Counted from the stretch's first letter, positions 1-12,900 are shown. The stretch: 12,900 bases of DNA from a virus (UHGV-0200016), one strand, 5' to 3'. Numbers and translations: made by a program. Notes: a model not told the origin generated them from the letters alone.

Positions 1-852
1 GTTTTCAAATTGTTCCGGACTGAGGCCGCCACACCAACTGTGCCGCCGCCACCGATTGTAATCACATTCGATATAATTAAACACCGTTGCCCGCATTATT
101 TCCCGGCTGATAAAGTGTTCTCCATGGATACATTCCACTTTCAGCGAATGAAAGAAGCTTTCCACGCAGGCATTATCGTAGCAGCAACCTTTTGCGCTCA
201 TACTTCCACGCAGATTATGCCGCTTCAGTTGCGCCTGATAATCTGCTGAACAGTACTGGCCTCCACGGTCCGTGTGAACGATAACGTTCCGGGGCCTCTT
301 ACGCCGCCACAGCGCCATCTGCAGGGCATCGCAGGCCAGTTGCGCCGTCATGCGTGGCGACATTGACCAGCCAATAACGGCACGTGACCACAGGTCAATG
401 ACCACTGCCAGATACAGCCAGCCTTCATCTGTACGTAAGTACGTGATGTCTCCTGCCCACTTCTGGTTCGGGCCACTGGCGTAAAAATCCTGCTCCAACA
501 GATTTTCTGACACAGGCAGGCCGTGTGCGCGGTAGCTGACCGGGCTGAACTTCCGGGAGGCCTTTGCCCTCAGTCCCTGACGGCGCAGGCTTGCCGCCAC
601 GGTTTTTACGTTAAAGGGGTAACCCTGAGCACGCAGTTCATCCGTCAGGCGTGGGGCACCGTAACGCTGTTTTGACCGGGTAAAAGCCGCGAGGACAACG
701 CTGTCGCAGTGTTGGCGGAACTGCTGACGCGTGCTTATCCTTGTCCGCCGCTGACACCACGTATACCAGCCGCTGCGGGCCACCCGGAGCACGCGGCACA
801 TTGCTTTGATGCTGAACTCAGCCTGATGTTTTTCAATAAAGACATACTTCAT
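1..852 (-). CDS. insF: IS3 transposase OrfB (InsF), 3'-partial (last few codons and stop lie before position 1)
   Basis: Minus-strand translation from the ATG at 852-850 gives [22 protein letters not shown]... and runs to ...[10 protein letters not shown] at the window edge, matching IS3 InsF as I recall it. It overlaps the orfA stop as expected for the -1 frameshift arrangement. It is absent from the ORF track because no stop lies in the window. Confidence 0.9.
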
Positions 853-1148
853 TTCAGGCGCTTCGCGAAGTATGTCGCGGCCTTTTGGAGGATAGCCAGC
901 TCTTCATCCCGTTCTGCCAGCTGGCGTTTGAGACGTGCAATCTCGGTAGACATCTCCAGTTCACGTTCAGAAGACGTCTGCTGATTTTGCTGTTTACTGC
1001 GCCAGTTGTAGAGCTGTGATTCATACAGGCTGAGTTCACGGGCTGCGGCAGTAACACCGATGCGTTCAGCAAGCTTCAGGGCTTCACTGCGAAATTCAGG
1101 CGAATGCTGTTTACGGGGTTTTTTACTGGTTGATACTGTTTTTGTCAT
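849..1148 (-). CDS. insE: IS3 transposase OrfA (InsE), 99 aa
   Basis: ORF track 849..1157 (minus) gives [34 protein letters not shown]...[15 protein letters not shown]. The canonical protein begins at MTKTVS (ATG at 1148-1146); the track begins at an upstream GTG. HTH-type IS3-family OrfA. Confidence 0.9.
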
Positions 1149-1269
1149 GTGAGTCACCTCTGACTGAGAGTTTACTCACTTAGCCGCGTGTCCACTATTG
1201 CTGGGTAAGATCAGGATTCTATCGATGTGGTCAATGGAAGACGGTTACCAGAGATAGGGCTTATGCATA

Positions 1270-1296
1270 AAAAAATAAGCCCGTGTAAGGGAGATT
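1270..1296. other. attL core (P2 att core, 27 bp)
   Basis: Exact 27-mer AAAAAATAAGCCCGTGTAAGGGAGATT, identical to the copy at 11555-11581, lying 80 bp from the integrase stop. It matches the P2 att core as I recall it. Confidence 0.75.
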
Positions 1297-1375
1297 TAGG
1301 GTGTCACCAGTAGGGGCTTTCAACGGTACAATGCGGGTTTGAGCGGCATAAATTACCACTGAAAGCCCTTAAACG

Positions 1376-2389
1376 TTACTCTACTGTGGACACTGTGTGG
1401 ACACTCTCGACCTCAGTACCACCTCTTAGCGGATTAAGAGAAATGGCGTCCTGAAGGTACTCTGGCGCAAAATGAGCGTAAACCATAGTTTGCTCAATCC
1501 GCGTGTGACCTAGTATCCGTTGTAGCGTGATAATACTTCCTCCATTAATCATGAAATGAGTGGCAAAGCTGTGCCTTAGTGCATGTGTAGCTTGCCCCAT
1601 TGGCAAATCCGGTTTTATTGCTTTCATTGTTCGTCTGAAGCGAGGGTAATCAGCATCAGGGAATAAAAAACCTCGTTTGTTATCCGCGATCATTTTGGCA
1701 ACAGCCTCTGAGATCGGGACGGTGCGTGGTTTGTTTGTTTTCGTTTTAACAAACGTGACGCGGTTATGGATGATATTTTCTGCTTTCAAACGAGCTGCTT
1801 CTCCCCAACGTGCTCCAGTACTCAGGCAAAGAATCGCAATCTTTTTGTTGTCGCCGTCAAGAGCAGCAAGCAGTAAGGCAATTTCTTCCTGCGTGAGATA
1901 GCCTGTGTCTGGTTTTTCCTCCTTAAGCCTTTTTGTCCCTCTGATAGGGTGCTCACCAAAGAATAACTCCGCTTCAATCAGGGCTGTAAACATGCCGCTA
2001 ATACATGTTAAATCACGATTGATACTCGAAGGTTTAATACCCTGACTTCTTCGGGTGGCGCAGTACTGGCTGATAAGCGATTTCGTAATTTGAAATGCGC
2101 ATGGGTCATTCGTTATTTTTGTGAAGATTTCAATTTTCCCAAGATTAGATTTCCCATGCTCTTCGTGTTTACCCTTTAAATCCCACCAGATCTGTGTCAG
2201 CTCCGACAGACGTCGCTTGTCTGTTGGTTTTGATAGCCATTCTTTATTGTGGTGGTTGTACAACGTGTATTTCTCGAAAGCGACAGCTTCGCTTTTCTTA
2301 TCAAACTTCCTACGGATGCGTTTTCCATTACGTCCAGTAGGGCGGATGTCCACTTCATATCGACCATCATCGAGTTTTTTGATTGCCAT
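1376..2389 (-). CDS. int: P2-type tyrosine integrase, 337 aa
   Basis: ORF track 337 aa: MAIKKLDDGRYEVDIRPTGRNGKRIRRKFDKK ... HALRHSFATHFMINGGSIITLQRILGHTRIEQTMVYAHF. It carries the tyrosine-recombinase R..HxxR..Y box and is close to residue-for-residue my recollection of P2 Int. Confidence 0.95.
   Translation of the reverse strand: MAIKKLDDGRYEVDIRPTGRNGKRIRRKFDKKSEAVAFEKYTLYNHHNKEWLSKPTDKRRLSELTQIWWDLKGKHEEHGKSNLGKIEIFTKITNDPCAFQITKSLISQYCATRRSQGIKPSSINRDLTCISGMFTALIEAELFFGEHPIRGTKRLKEEKPDTGYLTQEEIALLLAALDGDNKKIAILCLSTGARWGEAARLKAENIIHNRVTFVKTKTNKPRTVPISEAVAKMIADNKRGFLFPDADYPRFRRTMKAIKPDLPMGQATHALRHSFATHFMINGGSIITLQRILGHTRIEQTMVYAHFAPEYLQDAISLNPLRGGTEVESVHTVSTVE
1385..1404. promoter_or_regulatory. 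Tandem TGTGGACAC direct repeats; probable Int arm-type binding sites (P arm), inside the 3' end of int
   Basis: tgtggacac at 1385-1393 and 1396-1404, 11 bp apart. A matching pair with the same spacing lies on the other arm at 11496-11514. P2 Int arm sites are, from memory, direct repeats of roughly this consensus. Confidence 0.5.
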
Positions 2390-2504
2390 CAGAAAACCCT
2401 CCGAGTGGTGTGTTTTTTTGCGACTACTAATCGCTTTTTTCGTGGTGGCTGAAATTTAGCCACCAATAGTAGGCACTTGTGATGAATATATTCACGATGA
2501 ATTG

Positions 2505-2804
2505 TTAACCAGTCTTTTGACCGGAGTGGGGCGACGTTGTTTCGTTTTGCCCAAAGTGTGCGAGAGCGGGCGCAATTTGCCCGGACTCAGGAGCGATCTG
2601 ATTGGTCATGAACCATAAAGTGTATTTGGTGAATTGTGGGGTCTGCAGGATGTTCATCATGACATCTGTTGGAGGTGTTGAACGACCACTTTCATAGTAA
2701 CTCAGCGTGCCATACGGAACCCCTGTTAAATCAGCAAGTTGTTGTCTGCTCAAATACTCTGATTTTCGCATTAAGACTATCTTCTCGCTTATCGTGTTTG
2801 ACAT
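2505..2804 (-). CDS. C: P2 immunity repressor C, 99 aa
   Basis: ORF track 99 aa: MSNTISEKIVLMRKSEYLSRQQLADLTGVPYGTLSYYESGRSTPPTDVMMNILQ... It has an HTH, sits between int and cox and is divergent from cox, as in P2. Confidence 0.9.
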   Translation of the reverse strand: MSNTISEKIVLMRKSEYLSRQQLADLTGVPYGTLSYYESGRSTPPTDVMMNILQTPQFTKYTLWFMTNQIAPESGQIAPALAHFGQNETTSPHSGQKTG

Positions 2805-2918
2805 GGTGTTTAGATCTCAATAGTATTTAGTTTAGATGTAGATTGTTTAGTGCTTGGATGTGGGCACTAAAAGGCATTATAAGACATTAAACGCAATTCA
2901 TGAGGGCTAGAGGACGAC
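2805..2918. promoter_or_regulatory. P2 Pc/Pe divergent promoter and operator (lysogeny/lysis switch) region
   Basis: A 114-bp AT-rich intergenic region between divergent C and cox start codons, containing reiterated TTTAG elements (tatttagtttagatgtagattgtttagtg, 2823-2852). Exact operator boundaries not determined. Confidence 0.5.
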
Positions 2919-3527
2919 ATGAGCAAGCAAGTAACACTCATGACTGATGCGATTCCTTATCAGGAGTTCGCAAAACTAATAGGAAAATCGACAGGAGCGG
3001 TTCTCGGCGCGCGTCATATTCATATCACCAGAACGACGGACTGGCGCATTGTTCCGAAAGTTCCGGTCGTGGAGCCTTTAACTTTAAAAAGCGGCATCGC
3101 CGCGCCTCGGAGTCCTGTCAATAACTGTGGAAAGCTCACCGGTGGTGATACTTCGTTACCGGCTCACACACCTTCTGAGCACGCCGCAGCAGTGCTTAAT
3201 CTGGTTGATGACGGTGTTATTGAATGGAATGAACCGGAGGTCGTGAGGGCGCTCAGGGGGGCATTAAAACACGACCTGAGAACACCAAACCGTCAGCAAA
3301 GAAACGGAAGCCCGTTAAAACCACATGAAATTGCACCATCGGCCAGACTGACCCGGTCGGAAAGAATGCAAATTACCCGTATCCGCGTTGACCTTGCTCA
3401 GAACGGTATCAGGCCGCAGCGATGGGAGCTTGAGGCGCTGGCGCGTGGCGCGACCGTAAATTATTACGGGAAATCTTTCAATTATCAGGTCGCTGATGAG
3501 TGGCCTGGATTTTTGTTACCCATTTGA
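2919..3527 (+). CDS. cox N-terminus (about 28 codons) fused in frame to an unrelated 174-codon reading frame, possibly the 3' part of an early/replication gene; probable deletion product
   Basis: ORF track 202 aa. The first 28 residues, MSKQVTLMTDAIPYQEFAKLIGKSTGAV, match P2 Cox (a 91-aa protein). From about nt 3003 the sequence departs completely (LGARHIHITRTTDW...) and continues to 3527. SD agagga lies upstream of the ATG. Confidence 0.6.
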   Translation: MSKQVTLMTDAIPYQEFAKLIGKSTGAVLGARHIHITRTTDWRIVPKVPVVEPLTLKSGIAAPRSPVNNCGKLTGGDTSLPAHTPSEHAAAVLNLVDDGVIEWNEPEVVRALRGALKHDLRTPNRQQRNGSPLKPHEIAPSARLTRSERMQITRIRVDLAQNGIRPQRWELEALARGATVNYYGKSFNYQVADEWPGFLLPI

Positions 3528-3786
3528 GTAAAAATGCAGCGTGATTTTATATGCCTTTGAATGGATTATGCGAAGCGCCTCTAAGGCAGATGAGGAGCAA
3601 TAGCATGCTGAAGTAGAAGGCTAAATTGTATTGAATCGCTAGCATGTAATTTAAAGCAGCTATTTGATTCGAGTCATAAAAGAGCATCTATTTCGGCTAA
3701 TAAAACCATTGCGAGTGACCTTTTGTCGAAGCATAATTCATCTCGAGCGAAGTCTTGCTAGTCTTTCATCGGAATGATGACAGGCG

Positions 3787-3817
3787 CAAAAAAACCACCC
3801 TGGCAGGTGGTTTTTTT
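3787..3817. terminator. Bidirectional rho-independent terminator
   Basis: aaaaaaaccaccctggcaggtggttttttt: a GC-rich hairpin (ccaccctg/caggtgg) flanked by an A-run on the 5' side and a T-run on the 3' side, so it is terminator-like on both strands. Confidence 0.6.
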
Positions 3818-3829
3818 GTTTGAAGCATA

Positions 3830-3943
3830 CTAAAGAATAATACTTACATGGATATTACTGACGTTTACTGACAAACCACTTGGACTACCATATGGATAGC
3901 CAAAGAGGGCCAGAACGAGAATGCAGTAATAGCACTTCTTCAT
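3830..3943 (-). CDS. Hypothetical small hydrophobic protein, 37 aa (below ORF-track cutoff)
   Basis: Minus-strand ATG at 3943 preceded by a strong SD (caggaggagat-ATG). Translation is MKKCYYCILVLALFGYPYGSPSGLSVNVSNIHVSIIL, with stop at 3832-3830 immediately followed by the terminator at 3787-3817. Coding status is unproven. Confidence 0.3.
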   Translation of the reverse strand: MKKCYYCILVLALFGYPYGSPSGLSVNVSNIHVSIIL

Positions 3944-4518
3944 ATCTCCTCCTGTAAGCAGAGGGCAATTTCCGCCGATATATGCGCTTCTAAGGCGGAG
4001 TTACTATTTAGCGAAGTCTTGCCCTGAAATAATGCTCTGTTTAAACGCAAAGTGATCTGGCATATCACCGAACAGAGAGCCTGAACAACACAACATATAG
4101 TATGTCGTTGTTTCTGGTTGCATTTTATGTTGTGTAATCCTGGTTTTGCATCAAGGATGTTTGAGCTTTTTTTGATATAGCTCAAAGTAAAAAGCAGAGA
4201 CTACGGATGATAAGGTATTGAAAGCAATGTAAATTTTTTAAAGTTATTGGCGGCTAAAAAATGCACGGTTTCAATATGGTGGACTTAAATAAGCAATTAA
4301 AAAAGTCATAAATATCACTAAAATCATGGTGTTACGTTTTTTTTGTGGGAGCTGCGGTGACGCTTAAGTTGATTTGTCATTAAATAAGCCGTGCATGCAA
4401 CAAGTGAATGTTTTTGCATGCGTCGGGGATGCCCGTTCCGGCTGCTTGCGGTCAGAGCTGGTGCGGATCCATAGTATCTATGCAACTGCATTAAAACCGC
4501 CACATGAAGCGGGCGGGC

Positions 4519-4537
4519 GAGGCGGGGAAAGCACTGC
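4519..4537. other. P2-type cos site (19-nt cohesive-end sequence)
   Basis: ggcgaggcggggaaagcac matches the P2/186 cohesive-end sequence as I recall it. It sits in a GC-rich island of about 165 bp (roughly 4380-4545) between AT-rich segments. Confidence 0.6.
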
Positions 4538-4694
4538 GCGCAAAATGTTCTTGAAATATTTGTGACATAAGCTAAGACACAAAATGATTGAAGGGCAGAG
4601 CAAATCCTACAGTCCTATGCTATTGTCTCATGTAATGCAGATAAGTTGAAAATTATCTTAAAATATAAGAGTAAAGACATTAAAAGGATTGGTT

Positions 4695-6956
4695 ATGAAT
4701 AATAACTCTAAGTTATTAAGCTCTATCTCGGTTGAATCTGATTTCGAGAACCTTATAAAACTATATGCAAATGAGTTATTTGGTGGTGAAACATATCTGA
4801 TCGGTGGTCCTTGGGATAATGGAAAGGATTTGGTAATAAAAAAGGGGAATAGAGAGTTAAAGCAAGCTGTACAAATATCTATTCAAGAGAAAAATATTGA
4901 AAGTAAGATTGCTCAAGATATTAAAAAAGTGGCGAAATTGGTTGATGATCATTATTACCCGCCTGTATTATATTTTTTTTGGAGTCATTCAATATCTGAG
5001 CATTTATTGGATAAGATAAGAACAAATGCTCTTAAGGAAGATTTGATTAGATTGGAGTTTTATGATGCCAAACGGATCTCTCAAGATATTACAGATAAAT
5101 ACCCAGGGTTATTGAATTACTTAATAAAAGATATACATAAGATAAGTTCTAATACTGAAGATGCAATTAACTTGCAACAAAGAGCATTTTATGAATATTT
5201 ATTGTTAAGCAAAGATAGTGCTAATTTAAAAAATGAAATAATAAAAGCTAGTATTATGTCTAATTTATATGATGGCGGGAAGTCTGCTGATGATATTCTA
5301 GAGAATCTAAAAGGTGTTAGTCTTACAAAACGTAGTTTACAGGGTAGACTGCAAAACCTAATTCATCAAAATAAAATTAGATTGAATGATGGTATATATA
5401 GCCTGTCACCAGAGGAAATTAAAAAGCTTGAGAATATAAATCTCCGTGAAATTGTCAGAAAAGAAGAGTTGTTATCAGTAATAAATAATGAGTTGCCCAG
5501 AAATACAAGTAAGAATCTGGCTGTTCAAGTTGTTGATTTAATAATAAAGGCTTATGAAGAATCAATAAATGTCCAATTAACAGAAAGTAAATTTGAGCCT
5601 CCAAAATTACAGATATTCAAAACTATAGTACATAATTTAAAGGTGTTGATACGGCAGGAATATGATTTGGATGATGAGTCTTCGGATGCTTTAGCAAAAA
5701 AGCTAATGGAGTTGGCTGGTCAAAATGACTATTTATCCGAGCATTGCTCTGCTAAATTATGTGTGAATCTTTTAAGTGATCGGAAATTAGAGAAATATAT
5801 TGAAAATAAAAATTTTTATATCTACTTTGATGCGCCTGTTCTTATTCCATATTTGATAACTCTTATGTTTGGAGATTTTGAGCTTTTTGATAAGTCGATT
5901 AAAAATATAAATTTACTGAGAGAGTGCATAAATCCCCTCAAAAATAAACATCTGAGAGTTTCTAATGAACATTTTGAAGAAACTGCAAGGCACTACTCTG
6001 AAGCTGAAAAATTAAGTCAGTTTGTAACTGAAGATTTAATTAGTCAACTTGGTGAGTCGAAAAATGTATACTTTAATGTTTATATGCGGTGGAAAAACAA
6101 ACAGCCTAAACGTACAGATTTTTACGATTTTACTTATGCTTTTCTAGGGTTGGATAAAGATGATATTTATGCGGGGTATAAGCATGACACATTTGCGCAA
6201 TGCATTCATAATTTACTAGCGTCAGCAAATATTGTTGTAATTGATAATAAAGACTCGGTGTCACAAGACTTTGTATTTAAAATAAAGCAAAAACTTAAAA
6301 GGGATTTGAATTCTTCACGTCCCGTTCGAGCCATAGAAAATGATGTTATATGTGCTGCAACTTTGAGTGATGAAACCCTACATCTTGATTCCAATGGTTA
6401 CTTCAGTACTCCCATGCTAATAACGCTTGATAGATCTCAATATCTATTGAGAAGCATAGTAAGAAATGAAAGGAGACATGCTGAATGGTTGGTTTATACC
6501 CCTCAAAGAGCAATTGAACGTCTTTCCTTGGTGGGTTTAAAAATATCATCGGAATCGTTAAAGGATGGTGTTTTAGCAACCATATCAGAAGAATATTTCT
6601 TTAAAGAAAGTTCCAGTAGTTTGATTGATACTTTGGCTATTATCATTGGAGATAATCAAGCAAGGCAAGGAGATGTTATTAGGCTTGCATCGCTTTTAAA
6701 AAGAAAGGTCAATGAGGAATCTATTGAGAATTCAGAAATTGATATTGAACACTATAATAACATTAGTTATGTGCTTCTTTTCATTCATCGTGAATTTAAA
6801 TCTGAATTTTCAAATATAATAAAAATTTTTGCTGAGGATAGTAGGCGAGATAAACTGGTTGAAGTTTTGTTATCCACTATTCAAGGAGTTTTTGATGAGA
6901 GTAAAAAGGAAATCTTGCGCTCAAATATAGGACGGTTGTTGGCTGAAATGGGATGA
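4695..6956 (+). CDS. Hypothetical protein of about 753 aa with an N-terminal restriction-endonuclease-like (Mrr-type) motif; candidate anti-phage defence protein
   Basis: ORF track 4689..6956 (755 aa from a TTG). I prefer the ATG at 4695, which has SD aagga 6 nt upstream. The gene is strongly AT-rich and Lys/Asn/Ile-rich, unlike the flanking P2 genes. Residues about 25-100 (FENLIKLYANELFGGETYLIGGPWDNGKDLVIKKGNRELKQAVQIS...PVLYFFWSHSIS) resemble the Mrr catalytic-core pattern. A hairpin terminator follows at 6973-7005. Confidence 0.85.
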   Translation: MNNNSKLLSSISVESDFENLIKLYANELFGGETYLIGGPWDNGKDLVIKKGNRELKQAVQISIQEKNIESKIAQDIKKVAKLVDDHYYPPVLYFFWSHSISEHLLDKIRTNALKEDLIRLEFYDAKRISQDITDKYPGLLNYLIKDIHKISSNTEDAINLQQRAFYEYLLLSKDSANLKNEIIKASIMSNLYDGGKSADDILENLKGVSLTKRSLQGRLQNLIHQNKIRLNDGIYSLSPEEIKKLENINLREIVRKEELLSVINNELPRNTSKNLAVQVVDLIIKAYEESINVQLTESKFEPPKLQIFKTIVHNLKVLIRQEYDLDDESSDALAKKLMELAGQNDYLSEHCSAKLCVNLLSDRKLEKYIENKNFYIYFDAPVLIPYLITLMFGDFELFDKSIKNINLLRECINPLKNKHLRVSNEHFEETARHYSEAEKLSQFVTEDLISQLGESKNVYFNVYMRWKNKQPKRTDFYDFTYAFLGLDKDDIYAGYKHDTFAQCIHNLLASANIVVIDNKDSVSQDFVFKIKQKLKRDLNSSRPVRAIENDVICAATLSDETLHLDSNGYFSTPMLITLDRSQYLLRSIVRNERRHAEWLVYTPQRAIERLSLVGLKISSESLKDGVLATISEEYFFKESSSSLIDTLAIIIGDNQARQGDVIRLASLLKRKVNEESIENSEIDIEHYNNISYVLLFIHREFKSEFSNIIKIFAEDSRRDKLVEVLLSTIQGVFDESKKEILRSNIGRLLAEMG

Positions 6957-6972
6957 TTTCTTGGTTATTGAA

Positions 6973-7005
6973 CGGCACTATGGTCGTTGCTTATAGTGCC
7001 GTTTT
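6973..7005 (+). terminator. Rho-independent terminator downstream of the AT-rich gene
   Basis: cggcactat-ggtcgttgctt-atagtgccg followed by tttt: a 9-bp stem with an 11-nt loop, 17 bp after the stop codon. Confidence 0.55.
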
Positions 7006-7047
7006 AAGGTGTCGTGCCATTATGAATGGCATATCCGAGTTTATATA

Positions 7048-8082
7048 TTAGGTATCGCAAGTATCTAGTGAGTAGTTTTTAAAGCGGATGACCTCCTGAC
7101 CGAGCCAGCCGTTTATCTCGCGGATCCTGTCCTGTAACGGGATAAGCTCATTGCGGACAAAGACCTTTGCCACTTTCTCAATATCGCCCAGTGACCCGAC
7201 GTTCTCCGGCTTGCCGCCCATCAACTGAAAGGGGATGCGGTGCGCGTCCAGTAGGTCAGCGGCGCTGGCTTTTTTGATATTAAAAAAATCGTCCTTCGTT
7301 GCGACTTCACTGAGCGGGATAATTTTAATGCCGTCGGCTTTCCCCTGTGGGGCATAGAGAAACAGATTTTTAAAGTTGTTGCGGCCTTTCGACTTCACCA
7401 TGTTTTCGCGGAGCATTTCGATATCGTTGCGATCCTGCACGGCATCAGTGACGTACATGATGTATCCGGCATGTGCGCCGTTTTCGTAATACTTGCGGCG
7501 GAACAGCGTGGCCGACTCATTCAGCCAGGCAGAGTTAAGGGCGCTGAGATATTCCGGCAGGCCGTACAACTCCTGATTAATATCCGGCTCCAGCAGGTGA
7601 AACACGGAGCCGGGCGCGAAGGCTGTCGGTTCGTTGAAGGACGGCACCCACCAGTAAACATCCTCTTCCACCCCACGGCGGGTATATTTTGCCGGTGAGG
7701 TTTCCAGTCTGATGACCTTACCGGTGGTGCTGTAACGCTTTTCCAGAAACGCATTACCAAACACCAGAAAATCCAGCACAAAGCGGCTGAAATCCTGTTG
7801 TGAAAGCCACGGATGCGGGATAAATGTCGAGGCCAGAATATTACGTTTGACGTAAATCGGTGAGCTGTGATGTACGGCAGCACGCAGGCTTTTTGCCAGA
7901 CCGGTAAAGCTGACCGGTGGCTCATACCATCTGCCGTTACTGATGCACTCGACGTAATCCAGAATGTCACGGCGGTCGAGTACCGGCACCGGCTCACCAA
8001 AGGTGAATGCCTCCATTTTCGGGGCGCTGGCGGTCATTGTTTTTGCCGCAGGTTGCGGTGTTTTCCCTTTTTTCTTGCTCAT
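7048..8082 (-). CDS. Q: P2 portal (capsid portal) protein Q, 344 aa
   Basis: ORF track 344 aa: MSKKKGKTPQPAAKTMTASAPKMEAFTFGEPVPVLDRRDILDYVECISNGRWYEPP... It matches my recollection of P2 gpQ in sequence and length, and its start overlaps the stop of the upstream P fragment (TGATG). Confidence 0.9.
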   Translation of the reverse strand: MSKKKGKTPQPAAKTMTASAPKMEAFTFGEPVPVLDRRDILDYVECISNGRWYEPPVSFTGLAKSLRAAVHHSSPIYVKRNILASTFIPHPWLSQQDFSRFVLDFLVFGNAFLEKRYSTTGKVIRLETSPAKYTRRGVEEDVYWWVPSFNEPTAFAPGSVFHLLEPDINQELYGLPEYLSALNSAWLNESATLFRRKYYENGAHAGYIMYVTDAVQDRNDIEMLRENMVKSKGRNNFKNLFLYAPQGKADGIKIIPLSEVATKDDFFNIKKASAADLLDAHRIPFQLMGGKPENVGSLGDIEKVAKVFVRNELIPLQDRIREINGWLGQEVIRFKNYSLDTCDT

Positions 8083-8360
8083 CAGTAAAACTCCAGAATG
8101 GTGGATGTCAGCGGGGTGCTGATACCGGCGGTGAGTGGCTCATTTAACAGGGCGTGCATGGTCGCCCAGGCGAGGTCGGCGTGGCTGGCTTCCTCGCTGC
8201 GGCTGGCCTCATAGGTGGCGCTGCGTCCGCTGCTGGTCATGGTCTTGCGGATAGCCATAAACGAGCTGGTGATGTCGGTGGCGCTGACGTCGTATTCCAG
8301 ACAGCCACGGCGGATAACGTCTTTTGCCTTGAGCACCATTGCGGTTTTCATTTCCGGCGT
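8082..8360 (-). pseudogene. P: 3' fragment of terminase ATPase gene P (about 90 C-terminal codons); the 5' part is deleted
   Basis: A minus-strand open frame ends at 8082 (...LTAGISTPLTSTILEFY) with its stop overlapping the Q start, as for P2 P-Q. P is about 590 aa in P2, so only the 3' end is present. Assignment rests on synteny and coupling, not on confirmed homology. The upper boundary is approximate. Confidence 0.5.
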
Positions 8361-9245
8361 GTACCCGCACCGGATGTGGTCGAGGAGCTGGACTTTGAAA
8401 CCATTCTTGCCGAACGCAAGGCGACACTGATTTCCCTTTACCCGGAAGACCAGCAGGAGGCGGTCGCCCGTACCCTGACGCTGGAATCTGAGCCTCTCGT
8501 CAAACTGCTGGAGGAAAATGCTTATCGTGAGCTTATCTGGCGTCAGCGTGTGAATGAGGCCGCACGGGCGGTGATGCTGGCCTGTGCTGCCGGTAATGAC
8601 CTTGATGTGATTGGTGCCAATTACAACACCACGCGCCTGATTATCACCCCGGCAGATGATTCGACTATCCCGCCGACACCGGCAGTGATGGAGTCTGACA
8701 CCGATTACCGGCTGCGTATTCAGCAGGCGTTTGAAGGTTTAAGCGTCGCCGGGTCGGTGGGTGCCTATCAGTATCATGGCCGCAGTGCCGACGGGCGTGT
8801 CGCGGATATCTCTGTCACCAGTCCGTCTCCGGCCTGTGTCACCATCTCTGTGCTGTCACGTGAAAATAACGGTGTCGCTTCCGAAGACCTGCTGGCGGTG
8901 GTGCGTAACGCCCTTAATGGCGAGGACGTCAGGCCGGTGGCCGACCGCGTGACCGTGCAGTCTGCCGCCATCGTTGAATACCAGATAAACGCCACGCTGT
9001 ATCTTTACCCTGGTCCCGAAAGCGAACCCATTCGCGCTGCCGCCGTGAAAAAACTGGAAGCGTATATCACGGCACAGCACCGGCTGGGGCGCGACATCCG
9101 TCTGTCTGCCATTTATGCCGCTTTGCATGTGGAAGGCGTACAGCGTGTCGAACTGGCTGCACCGCTGGCCGACATCGTGCTCAACAATACGCAGGCGTCT
9201 TTCTGTACCGAATACCACGTCGTGACCGGAGGCTCGGATGAGTGA
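8361..9245 (+). CDS. J: Baseplate assembly protein J, apparently missing its first roughly 10 codons and its native start and promoter
   Basis: ORF track 8154..9245. From VPAPDVVEELDFETILAERKATLISLYPEDQQEAV... onward it matches P2 gpJ as I recall it. The 70 codons upstream in frame (MHGRPGEVGVAG...) are antisense to the P fragment and are not J-like. Confidence 0.75.
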   Translation, partial: VPAPDVVEELDFETILAERKATLISLYPEDQQEAVARTLTLESEPLVKLLEENAYRELIWRQRVNEAARAVMLACAAGNDLDVIGANYNTTRLIITPADDSTIPPTPAVMESDTDYRLRIQQAFEGLSVAGSVGAYQYHGRSADGRVADISVTSPSPACVTISVLSRENNGVASEDLLAVVRNALNGEDVRPVADRVTVQSAAIVEYQINATLYLYPGPESEPIRAAAVKKLEAYITAQHRLGRDIRLSAIYAALHVEGVQRVELAAPLADIVLNNTQASFCTEYHVVTGGSDE

Positions 9246-9849
9246 TTCGCGACTGCTGCCGACCGGCTCATCACCGCTTGAGGTCGCCGCCGCAAAAGCC
9301 TGTGCGGAAATTGAAAAAACGCCGGTCAGTATTCGTGAGTTGTGGAACCCGGACACCTGCCCGGCAAATCTGCTGCCGTGGCTGGCGTGGTCATTTTCGG
9401 TTGACCGCTGGGATGATAAGTGGCCGGAAGCGACAAAACGCGCTGTTATCCGCGATGCGTATTTCATTCACTGCCATAAGGGCACTATTGGTGCGATTCG
9501 CCGTGTGGTGGAGCCACTCGGCTATCTGATTGAGGTGAGGGAGTGGTGGCAGCTCAACGAGGAGCCGGGGACGTTCCGTATCGTTGTCGGCGTGCTTGAG
9601 CAGGGTATTACCGAGGAAATGTATCAGGAGCTGGAGCGCCTCGTTGCTGATGCAAAACCGGCAAGCCGCCATCTGACGGGACTGGCTATCAGTTTAAGTA
9701 CAACCGGCAACATTTTTGCCGGTGCGGGATGCTATCACGGCGACGCCCTGACGGTTTATCCCTACACCCCGGAGGCCATTATTGTCGGAGGGGATTATTT
9801 CCCGGCCTCGGCCATTCATTTAATTGATAACCTGAGAGTAAACGCATGA
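9238..9849 (+). CDS. I: Baseplate protein I (P2 gpI-like), 203 aa
   Basis: ORF track 203 aa: MSDSRLLPTGSSPLEVAAAKACAEIEKTPVSIRELWNPDTCPANLLPWLAWSF... The ATG overlaps the J stop (ATGA) and the stop overlaps the next gene's start, giving the J-I-H order of P2. Confidence 0.85.
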   Translation: MSDSRLLPTGSSPLEVAAAKACAEIEKTPVSIRELWNPDTCPANLLPWLAWSFSVDRWDDKWPEATKRAVIRDAYFIHCHKGTIGAIRRVVEPLGYLIEVREWWQLNEEPGTFRIVVGVLEQGITEEMYQELERLVADAKPASRHLTGLAISLSTTGNIFAGAGCYHGDALTVYPYTPEAIIVGGDYFPASAIHLIDNLRVNA

Positions 9850-11153
9850 CAGTGAAATACTACGCCATTCTGACTAATCAGGGCGCAGCACGGCTGGCTA
9901 ACGCGACGATGCTCGGCAGTAAGCTGAATCTGACGCAAATGGCCGTTGGTGATGCGAATGGTGTATTACCGACACCAGACCCGGCACAGACAAAACTGAT
10001 TAACCAGAAACGCATTGCACCGCTGAATATTCTGAGCGTTGACCCTAACAATCAGAGCCAGATTATTGCGGAGCAAATTATCCCTGAAAACGAGGGAGGA
10101 TTCTGGATCCGTGAGATTGGGCTTTATGATGATGAAGGCGTACTCATTGCGGTGGCGAACTGCCCGGAAACGTACAAACCGCAGTTGCAGGAAGGCAGTG
10201 GTCGTACCCAGACTATCCGCATGATTCTGGTTGTCACGAATACCGAAGCTATTACGCTGAAAATCGACCCGTCGGTGGTACTGGCGACCCGTAAATACGT
10301 GGATGATGAAGTCCTGGAATTAAGGCTGTATGTGGATGAACAGATGAGAAACCACATTGCCGCACAGGATCCTCATACCCAGTATGCACAGAAACATAAT
10401 CCGACATTTACCGGAGAACCAAAAGCGCCGACGCCTGCCGCAGGAAATAACACCACGCGGATTGCGACCACTGCGTTTGTACAGGCTGCTATTACCGCTC
10501 TGATTAACGGCGCGCCAGCCACGCTGGACACACTGAAAGAAATTGCCGCGGCCATTAACAATGACCCGAAATTCAGCACCACCATTAACAATGCGCTGTC
10601 AGGTAAGCAGCCACTGGATGAGACGCTGACTCATTTGAGTGGAAAGGATGTTGGAGCCTACACCGGCGTAACGGCAAAGTGGTTACACACCAAAGACCCG
10701 AAGCCGCAAAAGCAGAAGGTAAAACTGAAACGCAAAAAGAAAGAGAAACACCTGCGCGCACTGGAGCACCCGAAAGCGAAACCGGTCAGGCAGAAGAAAG
10801 CGCCAAAAGTACCGGAAGCGCGCGAAGGTGAATACATGGCCGGTGAGGCTGACAACGTTTTTGCCCTGACCACGGTATATGCCACGAAAGCACAGGCCAT
10901 GCGTGCTGCTCAGGCGAAGTGGGATAAACTGCAACGGGGCGTTGCGGAGTTCTCCATCATCCTGGCTACCGGTCGTGCAGATATTTACACGGAAACACCG
11001 GTCAGAGTGTCAGGCTTTAAGCGCGTCATAGACGAGCAGGACTGGACAATCACTAAGGTGACACATTTTCTGAATAATAGCGGCTTCACGACGTCCTTGG
11101 AGCTTGAGGTCAGGCTTTCTGATGTGGAGTACGAAACAGAAGATGATGAGTGA
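9846..11153 (+). CDS. Chimeric ORF: tail-fibre H-like N-terminal domain (about 270 aa) fused to the C-terminal part of tail protein D; deletion product
   Basis: ORF track 435 aa. The N-terminus (MTVKYYAILTNQGAARLA...GGFWIREIGLYDDEGVLIAVANCPETYKPQLQEGSGRTQT...) has the P2 gpH-type tail-fibre N-terminal signature. The C-terminus (...PVRVSGFKRVIDEQDWTITKVTHFLNNSGFTTSLELEVRLSDVEYETEDDE) is the gpD end that immediately precedes ogr in P2. A Lys-rich linker lies between. G, Z/fun, FI, FII, E, T, U and most of D are absent. Confidence 0.65.
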   Translation: MTVKYYAILTNQGAARLANATMLGSKLNLTQMAVGDANGVLPTPDPAQTKLINQKRIAPLNILSVDPNNQSQIIAEQIIPENEGGFWIREIGLYDDEGVLIAVANCPETYKPQLQEGSGRTQTIRMILVVTNTEAITLKIDPSVVLATRKYVDDEVLELRLYVDEQMRNHIAAQDPHTQYAQKHNPTFTGEPKAPTPAAGNNTTRIATTAFVQAAITALINGAPATLDTLKEIAAAINNDPKFSTTINNALSGKQPLDETLTHLSGKDVGAYTGVTAKWLHTKDPKPQKQKVKLKRKKKEKHLRALEHPKAKPVRQKKAPKVPEAREGEYMAGEADNVFALTTVYATKAQAMRAAQAKWDKLQRGVAEFSIILATGRADIYTETPVRVSGFKRVIDEQDWTITKVTHFLNNSGFTTSLELEVRLSDVEYETEDDE

Positions 11154-11234
11154 TGTTTTGTTTTTATCTGTTTGTTTTATAAGGATAAATTAACTAAAAT
11201 GGCACCATTAACAAAACCGGAAGAGGTGCTCGCG

Positions 11235-11453
11235 ATGTTTCATTGTCCTTTATGCCAGCATGCCGCACATGCGCGTACAAGCCGCTATATCACTGACACG
11301 ACAAAAGAGCGTTATCACCAGTGCCAGAACGTGAATTGCAGCGCCACGTTCATCACTTATGAGTCGGTACAGCGATACATCGTGAAGCCGGGAGAAGTCC
11401 ACGCCGTGAGGCCGCACCCGTTGCCGTCAGGGCAGCAAATTATGTGGATGTAA
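11235..11453 (+). CDS. ogr: P2 late-gene transcriptional activator Ogr (zinc-finger), 72 aa
   Basis: MFHCPLCQHAAHARTSRYITDTTKERYHQCQNVNCSATFITYESVQRYIVKPGEVHAVRPHPLPSGQQIMWM with the C-x2-C...C-x4-C zinc finger. The ORF track begins 21 codons upstream (11172), but the canonical start is the ATG at 11235. Confidence 0.9.
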   Translation: MFHCPLCQHAAHARTSRYITDTTKERYHQCQNVNCSATFITYESVQRYIVKPGEVHAVRPHPLPSGQQIMWM

Positions 11454-11464
11454 TTACAAACAGA

Positions 11465-11490
11465 AAGCCCCTCAGTCGAGGGGCTTTTTT
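11465..11490 (+). terminator. Rho-independent terminator of ogr
   Basis: aagcccctc-agtc-gaggggctt followed by tttt, 12 bp after the ogr stop. Confidence 0.7.
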
Positions 11491-11495
11491 GTCGA

Positions 11496-11514
11496 TGTGG
11501 TCAATGTGTGGACG
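11496..11514. promoter_or_regulatory. Direct repeats TGTGGTCA / TGTGGACG; probable Int arm-type binding sites (P' arm)
   Basis: tgtggtca at 11496-11503 and tgtggacg at 11507-11514, 11 bp apart, mirroring the pair at 1385-1404 on the int-proximal arm. Confidence 0.45.
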
Positions 11515-11554
11515 TGACCAGAAATAAATCCTTTTATTTCAATTTGTTGTACGT

Positions 11555-11581
11555 AAAAAATAAGCCCGTGTAAGGGAGATT
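11555..11581. other. attR core (P2 att core, 27 bp)
   Basis: Exact copy of AAAAAATAAGCCCGTGTAAGGGAGATT, followed by AT-rich non-phage DNA leading into the convergent host gene. Confidence 0.75.
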
Positions 11582-11725
11582 ACACAGGCTAAGGAGGTGG
11601 TTCCTGGTACAGCTAGCATTTTATGGGTTATGTTTTTCAGCGAAACGGATGATAACCTTAATAAATGCAGCTGTATGTGATCGGTTTCTAAGAATTTTCC
11701 ATCCGGGAAAAATAATCGAAATTAA

Positions 11726-12900
11726 TCACTTACCGTGTGGGTTACGCGTGGTTTCCCCGGAGAAATTACGCATCAGCAGAGCGTAATTGAGCTCAAGATC
11801 CTGCGGGACCGGGAGCCACACAGTATAACCATCGCCTGGTGCGACCGGCATCGCTTCACCTTTGGCGTTTTCCATGTGCTCAAGGGTAAAGTTAATGTTG
11901 CCTTGCGGCGTCATCAGCTCAAGGCTGTCGCCAACGGAGAATTTATTTTTCACCGCTACCGCCGCGAGGTCCCCCTTGCGCTCACCGGTAAACTCACCAA
12001 CAAACTGCTGGCGGTCAGAAACTGAATAACCGTATTCGTAGTTCTGATAATCGTCGTGAGTATGACGACGCAGGAAACCTTCGGTATAGCCACGATGCGC
12101 CAGACCTTCCAGAGTTTCCAGCAGGCTGGTATCGAACGGTTTGCCCGCAGCGGCGTCATCGATAGCTTTACGGTAAACCTGTGCGGTGCGTGCGCAATAG
12201 TAGAAAGATTTAGTACGGCCTTCGATTTTCAGCGAATGCACGCCCATTTTGGTCAGGCGTTCTACATGGGCGATGGCGCGCAGATCTTTCGAGTTCATGA
12301 TGTAAGTGCCGTGCTCATCTTCAAACGCGGTCATATACTCGCCCGGACGCTGGGCTTCTTCGATCATAAACACTTTGTCGGTTGGCGCGCCGATACCCAG
12401 CGTCGGCTCAACATTTTGCACCGGAATCGGCTCGTACTTGTGTACGATGTTGCCAACGTCATCTTCTTTCCCTTCCTGGACGTTGTACTCCCAGCGGCAG
12501 GCGTTGGTGCAGGTACCCTGGTTCGGATCGCGCTTGTTGATATAGCCAGAGAGCAGGCAGCGACCGGAGTAGGCCATGCACAGTGCGCCGTGAACGAAGA
12601 TCTCGATCTCCATATCCGGCACCTGATTGCGGATCTCTTCAATCTCTTCCAGCGACAGCTCGCGAGAGAGGATCACGCGGGTCAGGCCCATTTGCTGCCA
12701 GAATTTCACCGTCGCCCAGTTTACGGCGTTAGCCTGCACCGAGAGGTGGATCGGCATTTCAGGGAAGTGCTCACGCACCAGCATAATCAGCCCTGGATCG
12801 GACATAATCAGCGCATCCGGCCCCATTTCCACCACCGGTTTCAGGTCACGGATAAAGGTTTTCAGCTTGGCGTTGTGCGGTGCAATGTTGACCACGACAT
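11726..12900 (-). CDS. yegQ: U32-family peptidase-like protein (YegQ/TrhP-like), 5'-partial (N-terminus beyond window end)
   Basis: ORF track 389 aa: ...EIFVHGALCMAYSGRCLLSGYINKRDPNQGTCTNACRW... contains the U32 peptidase signature (E-x-F-x2-G-[SA]-[LIVM]-C-x4-G-x-C-x-[LIVM]-S). It is convergent with ogr, as yegQ is with ogrK in E. coli K-12. Gene symbol is from recollection and synteny. Confidence 0.8.
   Translation of the reverse strand, partial: VVVNIAPHNAKLKTFIRDLKPVVEMGPDALIMSDPGLIMLVREHFPEMPIHLSVQANAVNWATVKFWQQMGLTRVILSRELSLEEIEEIRNQVPDMEIEIFVHGALCMAYSGRCLLSGYINKRDPNQGTCTNACRWEYNVQEGKEDDVGNIVHKYEPIPVQNVEPTLGIGAPTDKVFMIEEAQRPGEYMTAFEDEHGTYIMNSKDLRAIAHVERLTKMGVHSLKIEGRTKSFYYCARTAQVYRKAIDDAAAGKPFDTSLLETLEGLAHRGYTEGFLRRHTHDDYQNYEYGYSVSDRQQFVGEFTGERKGDLAAVAVKNKFSVGDSLELMTPQGNINFTLEHMENAKGEAMPVAPGDGYTVWLPVPQDLELNYALLMRNFSGETTRNPHGK

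What the first reader, a model, noticed from the sequence alone, without database searches (positions are those of the whole stretch)
4380..4545. cos site preserved as a GC-rich island between two AT-rich cargo segments
Seen in sequence: about 165 bp of GC-rich DNA ending in ggcgaggcggggaaagcac-tgcgcgc is flanked by AT-rich DNA on both sides (3528-4380 and 4546-7047). Only about 8 bp of P2-like sequence appear to follow the 19-mer before the AT-rich gene region starts. Established knowledge (recollection): this 19-mer is the P2/186 cohesive end, and P2 terminase needs flanking sequence on both sides of cos. Inference: cargo was inserted immediately beside cos with apparent selection to keep the packaging site. 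An intact cos in a remnant that still has int raises the possibility that the element, with its cargo gene, can be mobilised by a helper P2-like phage, much as P4 satellites are.
Basis: partly seen in the sequence, partly recalled or inferred. Interest (0 to 1): 0.5.

Follow-up and report, generated by a model that had tools for sequence, protein, structure and literature searches.

The report
Intact P2 cos site in prophage remnant
The GC-rich island is a complete packaging (cos) site of a P2-type phage, sitting in the already described cargo hotspot between the phage replication and portal genes. It was inherited unchanged from an intact prophage, so it is real but ordinary, and nothing shows that the remnant is mobilised.

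Summary
The 19-nt P2/P4 cohesive end lies at 4516-4534 (chance expectation 0.01). It sits in a 61-bp conserved cos core (4481-4541) with a second conserved block at 4388-4424, and AT-rich DNA lies on both sides.

The "only ~8 bp" after the 19-mer is not a truncation. In 116 distinct viral cos junctions, and in P4 itself, conservation stops after the heptamer TGCGCGC. P4-like satellites and about 8% of sampled P2-like contigs carry unrelated, mostly AT-rich cargo from that base onward.

The same 753-aa cargo gene, with the same cos junction, occurs in apparently intact P2-like prophages. One of them is 100% identical to the window over 3528-4700. The left AT-rich segment is a shared phage module, not remnant-specific cargo.

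The window is a 10,285-bp deletion remnant of a P2 prophage at the yegR/cyaR-yegQ site. It keeps attL, attR, int, repressor C, the ori nick site and cos, but has lost cox, B, most of A and the head, terminase and tail genes.

Its deletion junctions occur in one lineage only. No selection in the remnant is needed to explain cos retention. Helper mobilisation is conceivable but unsupported. The architecture is already published (Dodd & Egan 1996; Rousset 2022).

The parts
1270..1296 (.). attL core: the 27-bp P2 att core AAAAAATAAGCCCGTGTAAGGGAGATT
   Evidence: Perfect direct repeat with 11555-11581. It aligns to the annotated P2 attP core 24356-24382.
1313..1386 (.). P' arm region, corresponding to the annotated P2 Cox-binding stretch
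   Evidence: Window 1270-3007 is 99.4% identical to P2 24356-26094. The P2 annotation places the Cox site at 24399-24472. Coordinates are mapped by offset, which is an inference.
1376..2389 (-). int, a 337-aa tyrosine integrase almost identical to P2 Int
   Evidence: Pfam Int_N and Phage_integrase. DNA alignment to P2.
2505..2804 (-). C, the P2-type immunity repressor; the Pe/Pc operator region follows at about 2798-2901
   Evidence: HTH_3 hit. In the alignment to P2, no mismatch falls in C or in Pe/Pc.
2919..3527 (+). cox' (first ~29 codons) fused to the last ~175 codons of replication gene A. Deletion junction J1 lies at 3002-3007. The P2 ori nick site maps to about 3109.
   Evidence: Pfam Phage_Cox on residues 1-29 only. 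Alignment A3. Blast map: 3002-3511 = P2 29785-30294. P2 rep_origin is at 29892.
3528..4363 (.). AT-rich A-to-cos spacer module. It contains a 37-aa ORF at 3830-3943 (-) and a hairpin at 3790-3820.
   Evidence: About 99% identical in an apparently intact prophage (ETEC1730) and in the EC2001 remnant. The same 988-bp A-to-cos spacing is seen in other phage contigs. The small ORF is called as a gene in L134, L138, L139 and L142.
4388..4424 (.). Distal conserved cos block with the inverted repeat GCATGCAACAA / TTTTTGCATGC
   Evidence: Conserved with 186 and P4. Positions -128 to -92 are moderately conserved in 116 junctions. Inverted repeat I1.
4481..4541 (.). cos core, positions -35 to +26 relative to the first base of the 19-mer. 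This corresponds to the '55-bp' conserved cos of P2 and P4.
   Evidence: Per-position conservation of 0.9 or more across 116 distinct junctions. The window differs from the consensus only at one variable position. The 55-bp core is cited in PMC5694545 and PMC9594776.
4516..4534 (+). 19-nt cohesive-end sequence, where the terminase makes its staggered cut
   Evidence: Exact match to P2 cosL and to the P4 left end.
4535..4541 (+). Heptamer TGCGCGC, the last conserved bases of cos and the fixed left edge of the right-hand cargo slot
   Evidence: Present in 116 of 125 junctions. 47 distinct 20-mers follow it.
4695..6956 (+). Cargo gene of 753 aa (WP_053286240), 32% GC, unannotated family. The model shows a PD-(D/E)xK-like N-terminal domain, a winged helix and a PIN-like domain.
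7048..8082 (-). Q, the portal gene. Homology to P2 resumes at 7060 (P2 nt 199).
   Evidence: Pfam Phage_portal. Blast map. Right-edge alignment.
8082..8363 (-). 'P, only the C-terminal ~90 codons of the large terminase. Deletion junction J2 lies at 8362-8363 and joins P2 nt 1502 to nt 11317.
   Evidence: Terminase_6C hit. Blast map.
8376..11153 (+). Tail-gene leftovers: 'J, I and an H'-'D fusion ORF
   Evidence: Pfam Baseplate_J, Tail_P2_I, and Phage_tail_fib plus Phage_GPD in one ORF. RefSeq annotation.
11235..11453 (+). ogr (ogrK), the late-gene activator
   Evidence: RefSeq annotation. Window 10652-11581 is 97.4% identical to P2 23453-24382.
11555..11581 (.). attR core. The P arm Int and IHF sites map to about 11492-11556. 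The core overlaps the 3' end of the CyaR sRNA gene (11558-11643, - strand).
   Evidence: Direct repeat. Rfam CyaR_RyeE at 100.7 bits. P2 annotation of the P arm and IHF site, mapped by offset.

Best explanation
The island is the complete cos site of a P2-family phage. It is the sequence that the phage terminase (gpM plus gpP) recognises on a closed circular genome and cuts with a 19-nt stagger before packaging.

It lies in the known variable region between replication gene A and portal gene Q. There, foreign and usually AT-rich genes are exchanged on either side of an invariant cos core. The right-hand slot begins exactly 7 nt after the cohesive-end sequence.

The window is a 10.3-kb deletion remnant of such a prophage, integrated at the P2 att site overlapping cyaR. 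Three internal deletions and a neighbouring IS3 removed cox, B, most of A, most of terminase P, the capsid, lysis and most tail genes.

Cos survives because it sits 160 bp upstream of a retained cargo gene and the remnant is very young. Selection for packaging of the remnant is not needed to explain it. In this context cos is most likely idle.

Shown: identity and completeness of cos, the hotspot architecture, descent from an intact prophage, and the gene losses.
Inferred: that cos is currently unused, and that the cargo is what selection retains.
For: - Exact 19-mer, chance expectation 0.01.
- Alignment with the P2, 186 and P4 junctions: the window and P4 diverge from P2/186 at the same column, 7 nt after the 19-mer.
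- 120 IMG/VR contigs with the 19-mer: 85 P2-like with 170-189 bp between cos and Q, 8 P2-like with 0.9-3.2 kb of cargo starting right after the heptamer, and 20 P4-like that also diverge there. 47 distinct sequences follow the heptamer.
- The conservation profile defines the core as -35 to +26, and the window matches it.
- The exact cargo protein is indexed in 444 blocks of the collection. In all 10 contexts read, the junction GCAC-TGCGCGC-AAAATG and the 160-nt spacing are identical, and most of those contexts are apparently intact prophages.
- L140, an intact-looking prophage at the same locus, is 100% identical to the window over 3528-4700. It has 0 mismatches over attL-int-C and 19 mismatches over 5.4 kb.
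- The map onto P2 shows the three deletions.
- Published descriptions of the hotspot: PMC9122126; PMC5694545, citing Dodd & Egan 1996 and Nakayama 1999. The cargo accession is listed in Rousset Table S5.
Against: - No experiment shows that this cos is idle.
- All cis-acting sites needed for a helper-dependent life (att cores, int, ori nick site, cos) happen to be intact, and the element length of 10,285 bp is close to the P4 genome size of 11.6 kb. This could be more than coincidence.
- The other remnants carrying this cargo (L134, L141, and EC2001 with a different cargo) also keep cos. However, they were found through cos or through the adjacent gene, so this is ascertainment bias rather than evidence.
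Confidence: 0.85

Rival explanations
1. The remnant is a helper-dependent 'hitcher'. A P2-like helper supplies Cox, terminase and capsids. The 10.3-kb circle excised by its own Int is cut at cos and packaged, as happens with P4 or cos-carrying islands. Cos is therefore kept by selection.
For: - Perfect 27-bp att cores 10,285 bp apart.
- int, the P' arm with the Cox-site region and the P arm are about 99% identical to P2.
- The ori nick sequence is retained.
- The cos core is complete.
- Plasmids of 5-10 kb carrying a P4 cos are packaged into P4-size capsids in a P2 lysogen infected with P4, and closed circles are the preferred substrate (PMC2231350).
Against: - cox, B and the N-terminal three quarters of A are deleted.
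- There are no P4-type helper-manipulation genes; no psu-like hit was found for the window type, and there is no sid, epsilon or alpha.
- C and its operators are identical to those of P2. By inference the cell should be immune to wild-type P2. A heteroimmune helper would bring a different excisionase (recollection).
- The P2 A protein acts preferentially in cis (recollection).
- Junctions J1 and J2 are found only in the source strain among 5,426 complete genomes, plus one near-identical GenBank genome with the same IS3. That is clonal, not horizontal, spread.
- The source chromosome shows only one place matching A, P, J or cos fragments, so no close resident helper is present.
- Identity to an intact prophage means that no selection needs to be invoked.
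Confidence: 0.06
2. The cos core matters here as a recombination joint rather than as a packaging site. Conserved cos on the left and Q on the right act as homology arms, or the cohesive ends of different genomes anneal. Cargo cassettes are then swapped between resident remnants and incoming P2-like phages, which is marker rescue. The cargo would be mobilised by recombination into a helper genome, not by packaging of the remnant.
For: - EC2001 (a remnant at the same locus) is 98-99% identical to the window from the end of A through cos to +6, then carries a SIR2 gene instead of the 753-aa gene, then Q again.
- The same cargo is joined to at least three different left flanks. In L133, shared sequence starts exactly at the core edge (4481). 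In L135 it starts at 4380.
- L142 carries the same A-cos-cargo-Q block in a prophage with a different integrase at another site.
- Rousset et al. speculate on exactly this mechanism. The 2026 NAR paper asks whether defective elements still swap defences.
Against: - The breakpoints only show that exchange happened somewhere in the history of these phages, not that remnants take part.
- Homologous recombination and cohesive-end annealing cannot be told apart from these data.
- This reading is compatible with the best explanation rather than a true alternative to it.
Confidence: 0.25
3. The 19-mer is a fortuitous match in a GC-rich stretch, or the island is a small protein-coding gene (ORFs 4324-4503 on the - strand, 4374-4565 on the + strand).
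For: Two short ORFs overlap the island.
Against: - Chance expectation is 0.01.
- About 150 bp upstream is 94-96% identical to the right ends of sequenced phages, whose records end exactly at the 19-mer.
- The island has the correct position between A and Q.
- The ORFs have no PADLOC match.
Confidence: 0.01

Closest known systems
cos region of phages P2, 186 and satellite P4 (the 55-bp core of Ziermann & Calendar 1990, as cited in PMC5694545, PMC9594776 and PMC2231350)
   Same: - Identical 19-nt cohesive end.
- Conserved core from -35 to +26.
- A distal GCATGC-containing block like those of 186 and P4.
- Location between the A-side variable region and the portal gene on the opposite strand.
   Different: The window lacks the GC-rich ~130-bp spacer and the tQ terminator that follow the heptamer in P2 and 186. 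In this respect it resembles P4, where unrelated AT-rich DNA starts at the same base.
The cos-adjacent cargo/defence hotspot of P2-like phages (Dodd & Egan 1996: retrons replace DNA between cos and a terminator of a 186-related prophage; Nakayama 1999; Rousset et al. 2022, PMC9122126)
   Same: - A variable AT-rich gene lies between cos and Q.
- The same cargo accession is already tabulated in that hotspot.
- The same cargo occurs in apparently intact prophages.
   Different: Here the carrier is a deletion remnant. The cargo has no assigned function and no PADLOC match.
Defective P2 prophages that retain defence genes (PMC13586616, 2026), and the cryptic P2 remnant at the cyaR/yegQ site of E. 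coli K-12 and B (recollection: Barreiro & Haggard-Ljungquist 1992; source of P2 Hy dis)
   Same: Same chromosomal site, next to ogrK, CyaR and yegQ. Mobility and replication genes are lost while the cargo gene is intact.
   Different: This remnant is larger than the K-12 remnant, which by recollection has only ogrK and a D fragment. It still has int, C, cos and Q.
Helper-dependent islands that carry the helper's packaging site: P4-like satellites, cos-type PICIs and PICMIs (PMC10803314)
   Same: Integrase, att sites and the helper's cos on a ~10-kb element that also carries a probable defence gene.
   Different: - No replication module of its own.
- No helper-sensing or helper-manipulating genes.
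- No capsid-size genes.
- No multi-lineage distribution.
- Clearly derived by recent deletion from a full phage.

Membership tests
P2-family cos site | 19-nt cohesive-end sequence GGCGAGGCGGGGAAAGCAC (186 differs at 2 positions) | tested here: met
   19/19 at 4516-4534, identical to P2 cosL and to the P4 left end.
P2-family cos site | Conserved ~55-bp core around the cut sites, including the heptamer YGCGCGC on the left-end side | tested here: met
   The window matches the consensus of 116 distinct junctions over -35 to +26, except at one variable position.
P2-family cos site | Position between the A-proximal variable region and the portal gene Q, which is transcribed towards cos | tested here: met
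   'A ends at 3527 and Q is at 7048-8082 on the - strand.
P2-family cos site | Cleavage and packaging by the gpM/gpP terminase | not testable with these tools
   This needs an in vivo cos-cleavage or transduction assay.
P2 A-cos-Q cargo (defence) hotspot | Variable, compositionally foreign genes directly flank an invariant cos between gpA and gpQ | tested here: met
   The cargo has 32% GC against 53% for the phage backbone. Different cargo occupies the same slot in EC2001 and ETEC1730 and in 8 IMG/VR contigs.
P2 A-cos-Q cargo (defence) hotspot | The same cassette is carried by functional-looking P2-like phages | tested here: met
   L133, L135, L137-L140 and L142 have the full early, head and lysis gene sets within the sequenced flank.
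P2 A-cos-Q cargo (defence) hotspot | The cargo confers anti-phage defence | not tested
   No PADLOC, Pfam or NCBIfam match. There are only fold-level hints of nuclease domains.
P4-like satellite | Own replicon (alpha primase-helicase, ori/crr) | tested here: not met
   No such gene is in the window. Only a 3' fragment of P2 A with the nick site remains.
P4-like satellite | Helper-exploitation genes (epsilon, delta, sid, psu) | tested here: not met
   All ORFs are accounted for as P2 genes or as the cargo. The psu probe hits only P4-like contigs. ogr is the phage's own activator.
P4-like satellite | Integrase plus the helper-type cos | tested here: met
   int at 1376-2389 and cos at 4481-4541.
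Minimal helper-dependent island (cos-PICI / PICMI-like) | Spread as a unit: the same element in different lineages or at different sites | tested here: not met
   Junctions J1 and J2 are found in the source strain only among 5,426 complete genomes, plus the near-identical CP056794 with the same IS3.
Minimal helper-dependent island (cos-PICI / PICMI-like) | Helper-induced excision, replication and packaging | not testable with these tools
   This requires infection experiments. The excisionase cox is deleted.
Defective P2 prophage at the cyaR/yegQ att site | P2 att core duplicated at both ends, a P2 gene order with internal deletions, and flanking yegR and cyaR-yegQ | tested here: met

The most novel reading that the evidence does not exclude
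The remnant is an accidental satellite. Deletions have trimmed a P2 prophage to 10,285 bp, a P4-capsid-sized length, while it still has att, int, the ori nick site and cos. In a cell that also holds a P2-type helper able to supply Cox (and P4 for small capsids, or multimers in large heads), it could be excised, cut at cos and transduced, carrying its nuclease-like cargo gene. This would show one route by which phage satellites arise from defective prophages.
Probability: 0.05. Interest if true: 0.6.

Novelty: already known. Interest (0 to 1): 0.15.

Why it matters
As it stands, this is a clean and typical example of a published architecture: an invariant cos flanked by swappable cargo in P2-like phages.

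The useful points are practical.
- The right-hand limit of the functional cos can be read from natural variation. It lies at +26, the end of TGCGCGC.
- The left 'AT-rich cargo' is a conserved phage module.
- The 753-aa gene next to cos is an uncharacterised, widely spread candidate defence gene with PD-(D/E)xK-like and PIN-like domains. It travels in the cos-Q slot.

If a helper could mobilise such remnants, that would bear on how satellites originate. Nothing here indicates that it does.

Tried and rejected
- Rfam at gathering threshold found only CyaR. A permissive scan of 3450-4720 gave only sub-threshold chance hits.
- The promoter/terminator scan of 3450-7100 found no more sites than shuffled sequence.
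- PADLOC, Pfam and NCBIfam on the cargo and on the small ORFs over the island gave nothing.
- tblastn of the cargo against 50,697 phage records gave no match. The cargo is known only from prophages in bacterial assemblies.
- Foldseek against the PDB gave no significant whole-chain hit. The afdb50 library was unavailable.
- Several other remnants seemed to break gene P at the same base as this one (query ends 126-129). I rejected this as a shared breakpoint, because those alignments simply stop where the query leaves P. Intact P genes give the same end.
- The original Ziermann & Calendar 1990 paper is not in the library. The '55-bp core' is therefore quoted second-hand, and the exact minimal flanks they determined could not be checked.
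- Loci fetched in parallel calls were not copied to the script machine at first. This delayed the population analysis but did not change it.
- I did not test whether the source genome carries a P4-like satellite. Only close P2-like helpers were excluded, and only indirectly.

Full report
**What is in the window**

The window is E. coli 1218KP chromosome 1766861-1779760. Reading left to right:
- an IS3 copy (1 to about 1212);
- a 27-bp sequence at 1270-1296 that is repeated perfectly at 11555-11581 and is the annotated attP core of phage P2;
- int (1376-2389, - strand);
- an HTH repressor (2505-2804, - strand);
- an ORF (2919-3527) whose first 29 residues are Cox and whose remainder is the C-terminus of replication protein A;
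- an AT-rich stretch;
- the GC-rich island;
- a 753-aa AT-rich gene (4695-6956);
- portal gene Q (7048-8082, - strand);
- the last ~90 codons of terminase P;
- J, I and an H'-'D fusion;
- ogr;
- the second att core, overlapping the CyaR sRNA gene;
- trhP/yegQ.

A blast map onto P2 gives these blocks:

| Window | P2 | Identity |
|---|---|---|
| 1270-3007 | 24356-26094 | 99.4% |
| 3002-3511 | 29785-30294 | 94.3% |
| 4487-4534 | 33546-33593 | 95.8% |
| 7060-8363 | 199-1502 | 97.9% |
| 8362-9674 | 11317-12629 | 92.8% |
| 10652-11581 | 23453-24382 | 97.4% |

The element is therefore a 10,285-bp deletion remnant of a P2-type prophage. It has lost cox, B, most of A, most of P, all capsid and lysis genes and most tail genes.

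**Check of the observation**

The 19-mer GGCGAGGCGGGGAAAGCAC occurs once, at 4516-4534. The chance expectation is 0.01 even when three mismatches are allowed. It is identical to the annotated cosL of P2 and to the left end of P4.

Phage genome records end exactly at its borders. One Yersinia phage record stops at window 4515. A Salmonella phage record starts at 4534. Both show 95-96% identity over the ~150 bp upstream.

GC content is 0.55 in 4380-4545, against 0.39 on the left and 0.32 on the right. Only TGCGCGC (4535-4541) follows the 19-mer before similarity to P2 and 186 ends.

**Is the short right flank a defect?**

It is not. In the alignment of the circularised junctions of P2, 186 and P4 with the window, P4 reads GCAC-CGCGCGC-AAACCGACAAG and the window reads GCAC-TGCGCGC-AAAATGTTCTT. 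Both leave the P2/186 sequence at the same column and become AT-rich. P4 uses the P2 terminase for packaging and shares only a core cos with P2 (PMC9122126). Other papers describe that core as 55 bp.

I then collected 120 IMG/VR contigs containing the exact 19-mer and classified them with tblastn probes for Q, the end of A, and P4 psu:
- 85 are P2-like, with 170-189 bp between cos and the Q stop codon;
- 8 are P2-like, with 0.9-3.2 kb of other DNA in that interval;
- 20 are P4-like;
- the remaining 7 are 3 P2-like contigs with only the A side in range and 4 unclassified.

The heptamer TGCGCGC follows the 19-mer in 116 of 125 junctions. After it there are 47 different 20-mers. In the cargo-bearing P2-like and the P4-like contigs, the next 100 bp are mostly 25-43% GC.

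A per-position profile over 116 distinct junctions shows conservation of 0.9 or more from -35 to +26, a weaker block at -128 to -92, and a collapse immediately after +26. The window matches the core except at one variable position.

The position of the boundary is not in doubt.

**Where the arrangement comes from**

The exact 753-aa protein is indexed in 444 blocks of the assembly collection. Ten contexts were read.
- Six (L133, L135, L137-L140) are apparently intact P2-like prophages at the same yegR/yegQ site.
- One (L142) is an apparently intact prophage with a different integrase at a different site.
- Two (L134, L141) are independent, differently deleted remnants.
- One (L136, CP056794) is the same remnant with the same IS3, with 1 mismatch in 12.9 kb.

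All ten have the identical junction GCAC-TGCGCGC-AAAATG and 160 nt between cos and the start codon.

L140 is 100% identical to the window over 3528-4700. It has no mismatch over attL-int-C and 19 mismatches over 5.4 kb. The cos-cargo arrangement was therefore present in a functional-looking phage, and the remnant is a very recent derivative.

The left AT-rich segment (3528-4363) is about 99% identical in the apparently intact ETEC1730 prophage and in the EC2001 remnant. The same 988-bp spacing between A and cos occurs in other phage contigs. It is a common phage module, not cargo specific to this remnant.

EC2001 is identical to the window up to +6 after the 19-mer and then carries a SIR2 gene instead. 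ETEC1730 carries a third gene from +9. The right edge of the slot varies. In ETEC1730 the P2-type spacer and terminator are kept. In the window they, and the last four Q codons, are replaced.

**How it works**

By established knowledge of P2 and P4, closed circular genomes are the preferred packaging substrate. The terminase cuts the cos core with a 19-nt stagger (as summarised in PMC2231350). By sequence, everything known to be conserved in that site is present here. I infer that the site would be cut if terminase and a circular substrate were available. Nothing in the window can provide either.

**Mobilisation by a helper**

In favour:
- both att cores are perfect;
- int is intact;
- the P' arm and P arm are P2-like;
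- the ori nick sequence is retained at about 3109;
- the length is close to that of P4;
- 5-10-kb plasmids carrying a P4 cos are packaged into P4 capsids.

Against:
- The excisionase cox is deleted, as are B and the catalytic part of A.
- The repressor C and its operators are identical to those of P2. The cell should therefore be immune to wild-type P2 (inference). Heteroimmune relatives carry different excisionases (recollection).
- There are no P4-type helper-manipulation genes.
- The two deletion junctions tested are unique to this lineage among 5,426 complete genomes.
- The source chromosome has only one place matching A, P, J or cos fragments, so no close helper is resident.
- Because cos is identical to that of an intact relative, its survival needs no selective explanation.

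I put this reading at about 5%.

**A more likely route for the cargo to move**

Recombination is more likely. The same cargo is joined to at least three different left flanks. Shared sequence begins exactly at the core edge (4481) in L133 and at 4380 in L135. Different cargos are joined to the same left flank. This fits exchange within or at the cos core, as Rousset et al. speculated, and marker rescue from remnants. The data do not show that remnants take part.

**Comparison with what is known**

- Cargo between cos and the portal gene of P2/186-like prophages was described for retrons by Dodd & Egan 1996 and noted by Nakayama 1999 (cited in PMC5694545).
- The gpA-cos-gpQ region was catalogued as a defence hotspot by Rousset et al. 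2022. Their supplementary table lists this very protein accession as a single 'hypothetical' arrangement, on the same contig as L142.
- Defective P2 elements with intact defence genes are described in PMC13586616.

The finding is therefore already known in kind and catalogued in detail.

**Side result on the cargo**

The 753-aa protein has no Pfam, NCBIfam or PADLOC match. It has 46 homologous clusters in Gammaproteobacteria, all unnamed.

- winged-helix regulators.

Invariant residues D379, E429, D550 and D579 sit where I would expect the PIN acidic residues, judging by eye from the local sequence motifs. No residue-level structural alignment was made. The protein is a reasonable candidate defence nuclease, but it is untested.

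**Verdict**

This is a real and complete cos site in its normal, published genomic context, passively inherited by a young prophage remnant. Interest is low.

Noticed in passing
[not shown]
   Followed up: partly
window 3830-3943 (-), with hairpin 3790-3820: A 37-aa hydrophobic ORF (MKKCYYCILVLALFGYPYGSPSGLSVNVSNIHVSIIL) with a GGAGGAG ribosome-binding site and a following hairpin lies in the conserved A-to-cos spacer. Gene callers call it in several related assemblies. Short sequences recur nearby (agcgaagtcttgc at 3747 and 4011; gcg..ctctaaggc at about 3570 and 3985). Possibly a small membrane peptide or toxin module. Function unknown.
   Followed up: no
window 1217-1256 versus 11487-11526: The DNA just left of the attL core, on the 'bacterial' side, is 75% identical to the P2 P-arm region left of attR. 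This suggests that the attachment site at this locus is itself the relic of an older P2-type insertion. The same sequence is present in strains without the IS3 (L140 aligns from 1213).
   Followed up: partly
window 1-1212: An IS3 copy ends 57 bp from the attL core. It is absent from related strains that carry the intact prophage, and present in the one other genome (CP056794) that has the identical remnant. It marks the lineage.
   Followed up: partly
window 2919-3527 (+) and 9846-11153 (+): Two deletions left open reading frames that fuse unrelated gene pieces: Cox residues 1-29 joined to the A C-terminus (downstream of the intact Pe promoter), and the tail-fibre H N-terminus joined to the D C-terminus. 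Junction J1 has 6 bp of overlap between the two P2 segments (3002-3007).
   Followed up: partly
L142 (NRXI01000012) versus the window: The same A-cos-cargo-Q-P block (99.5% identical over 5.4 kb) sits in a prophage with a different integrase and repressor at a different chromosomal site. The integration and immunity modules and the cos/cargo module therefore reassort.
   Followed up: partly
window 11558-11643 (-): The CyaR sRNA gene (Rfam, 100.7 bits) overlaps the attR core at its 3' end. Prophage integration regenerates the sRNA 3' end from phage sequence.
   Followed up: no
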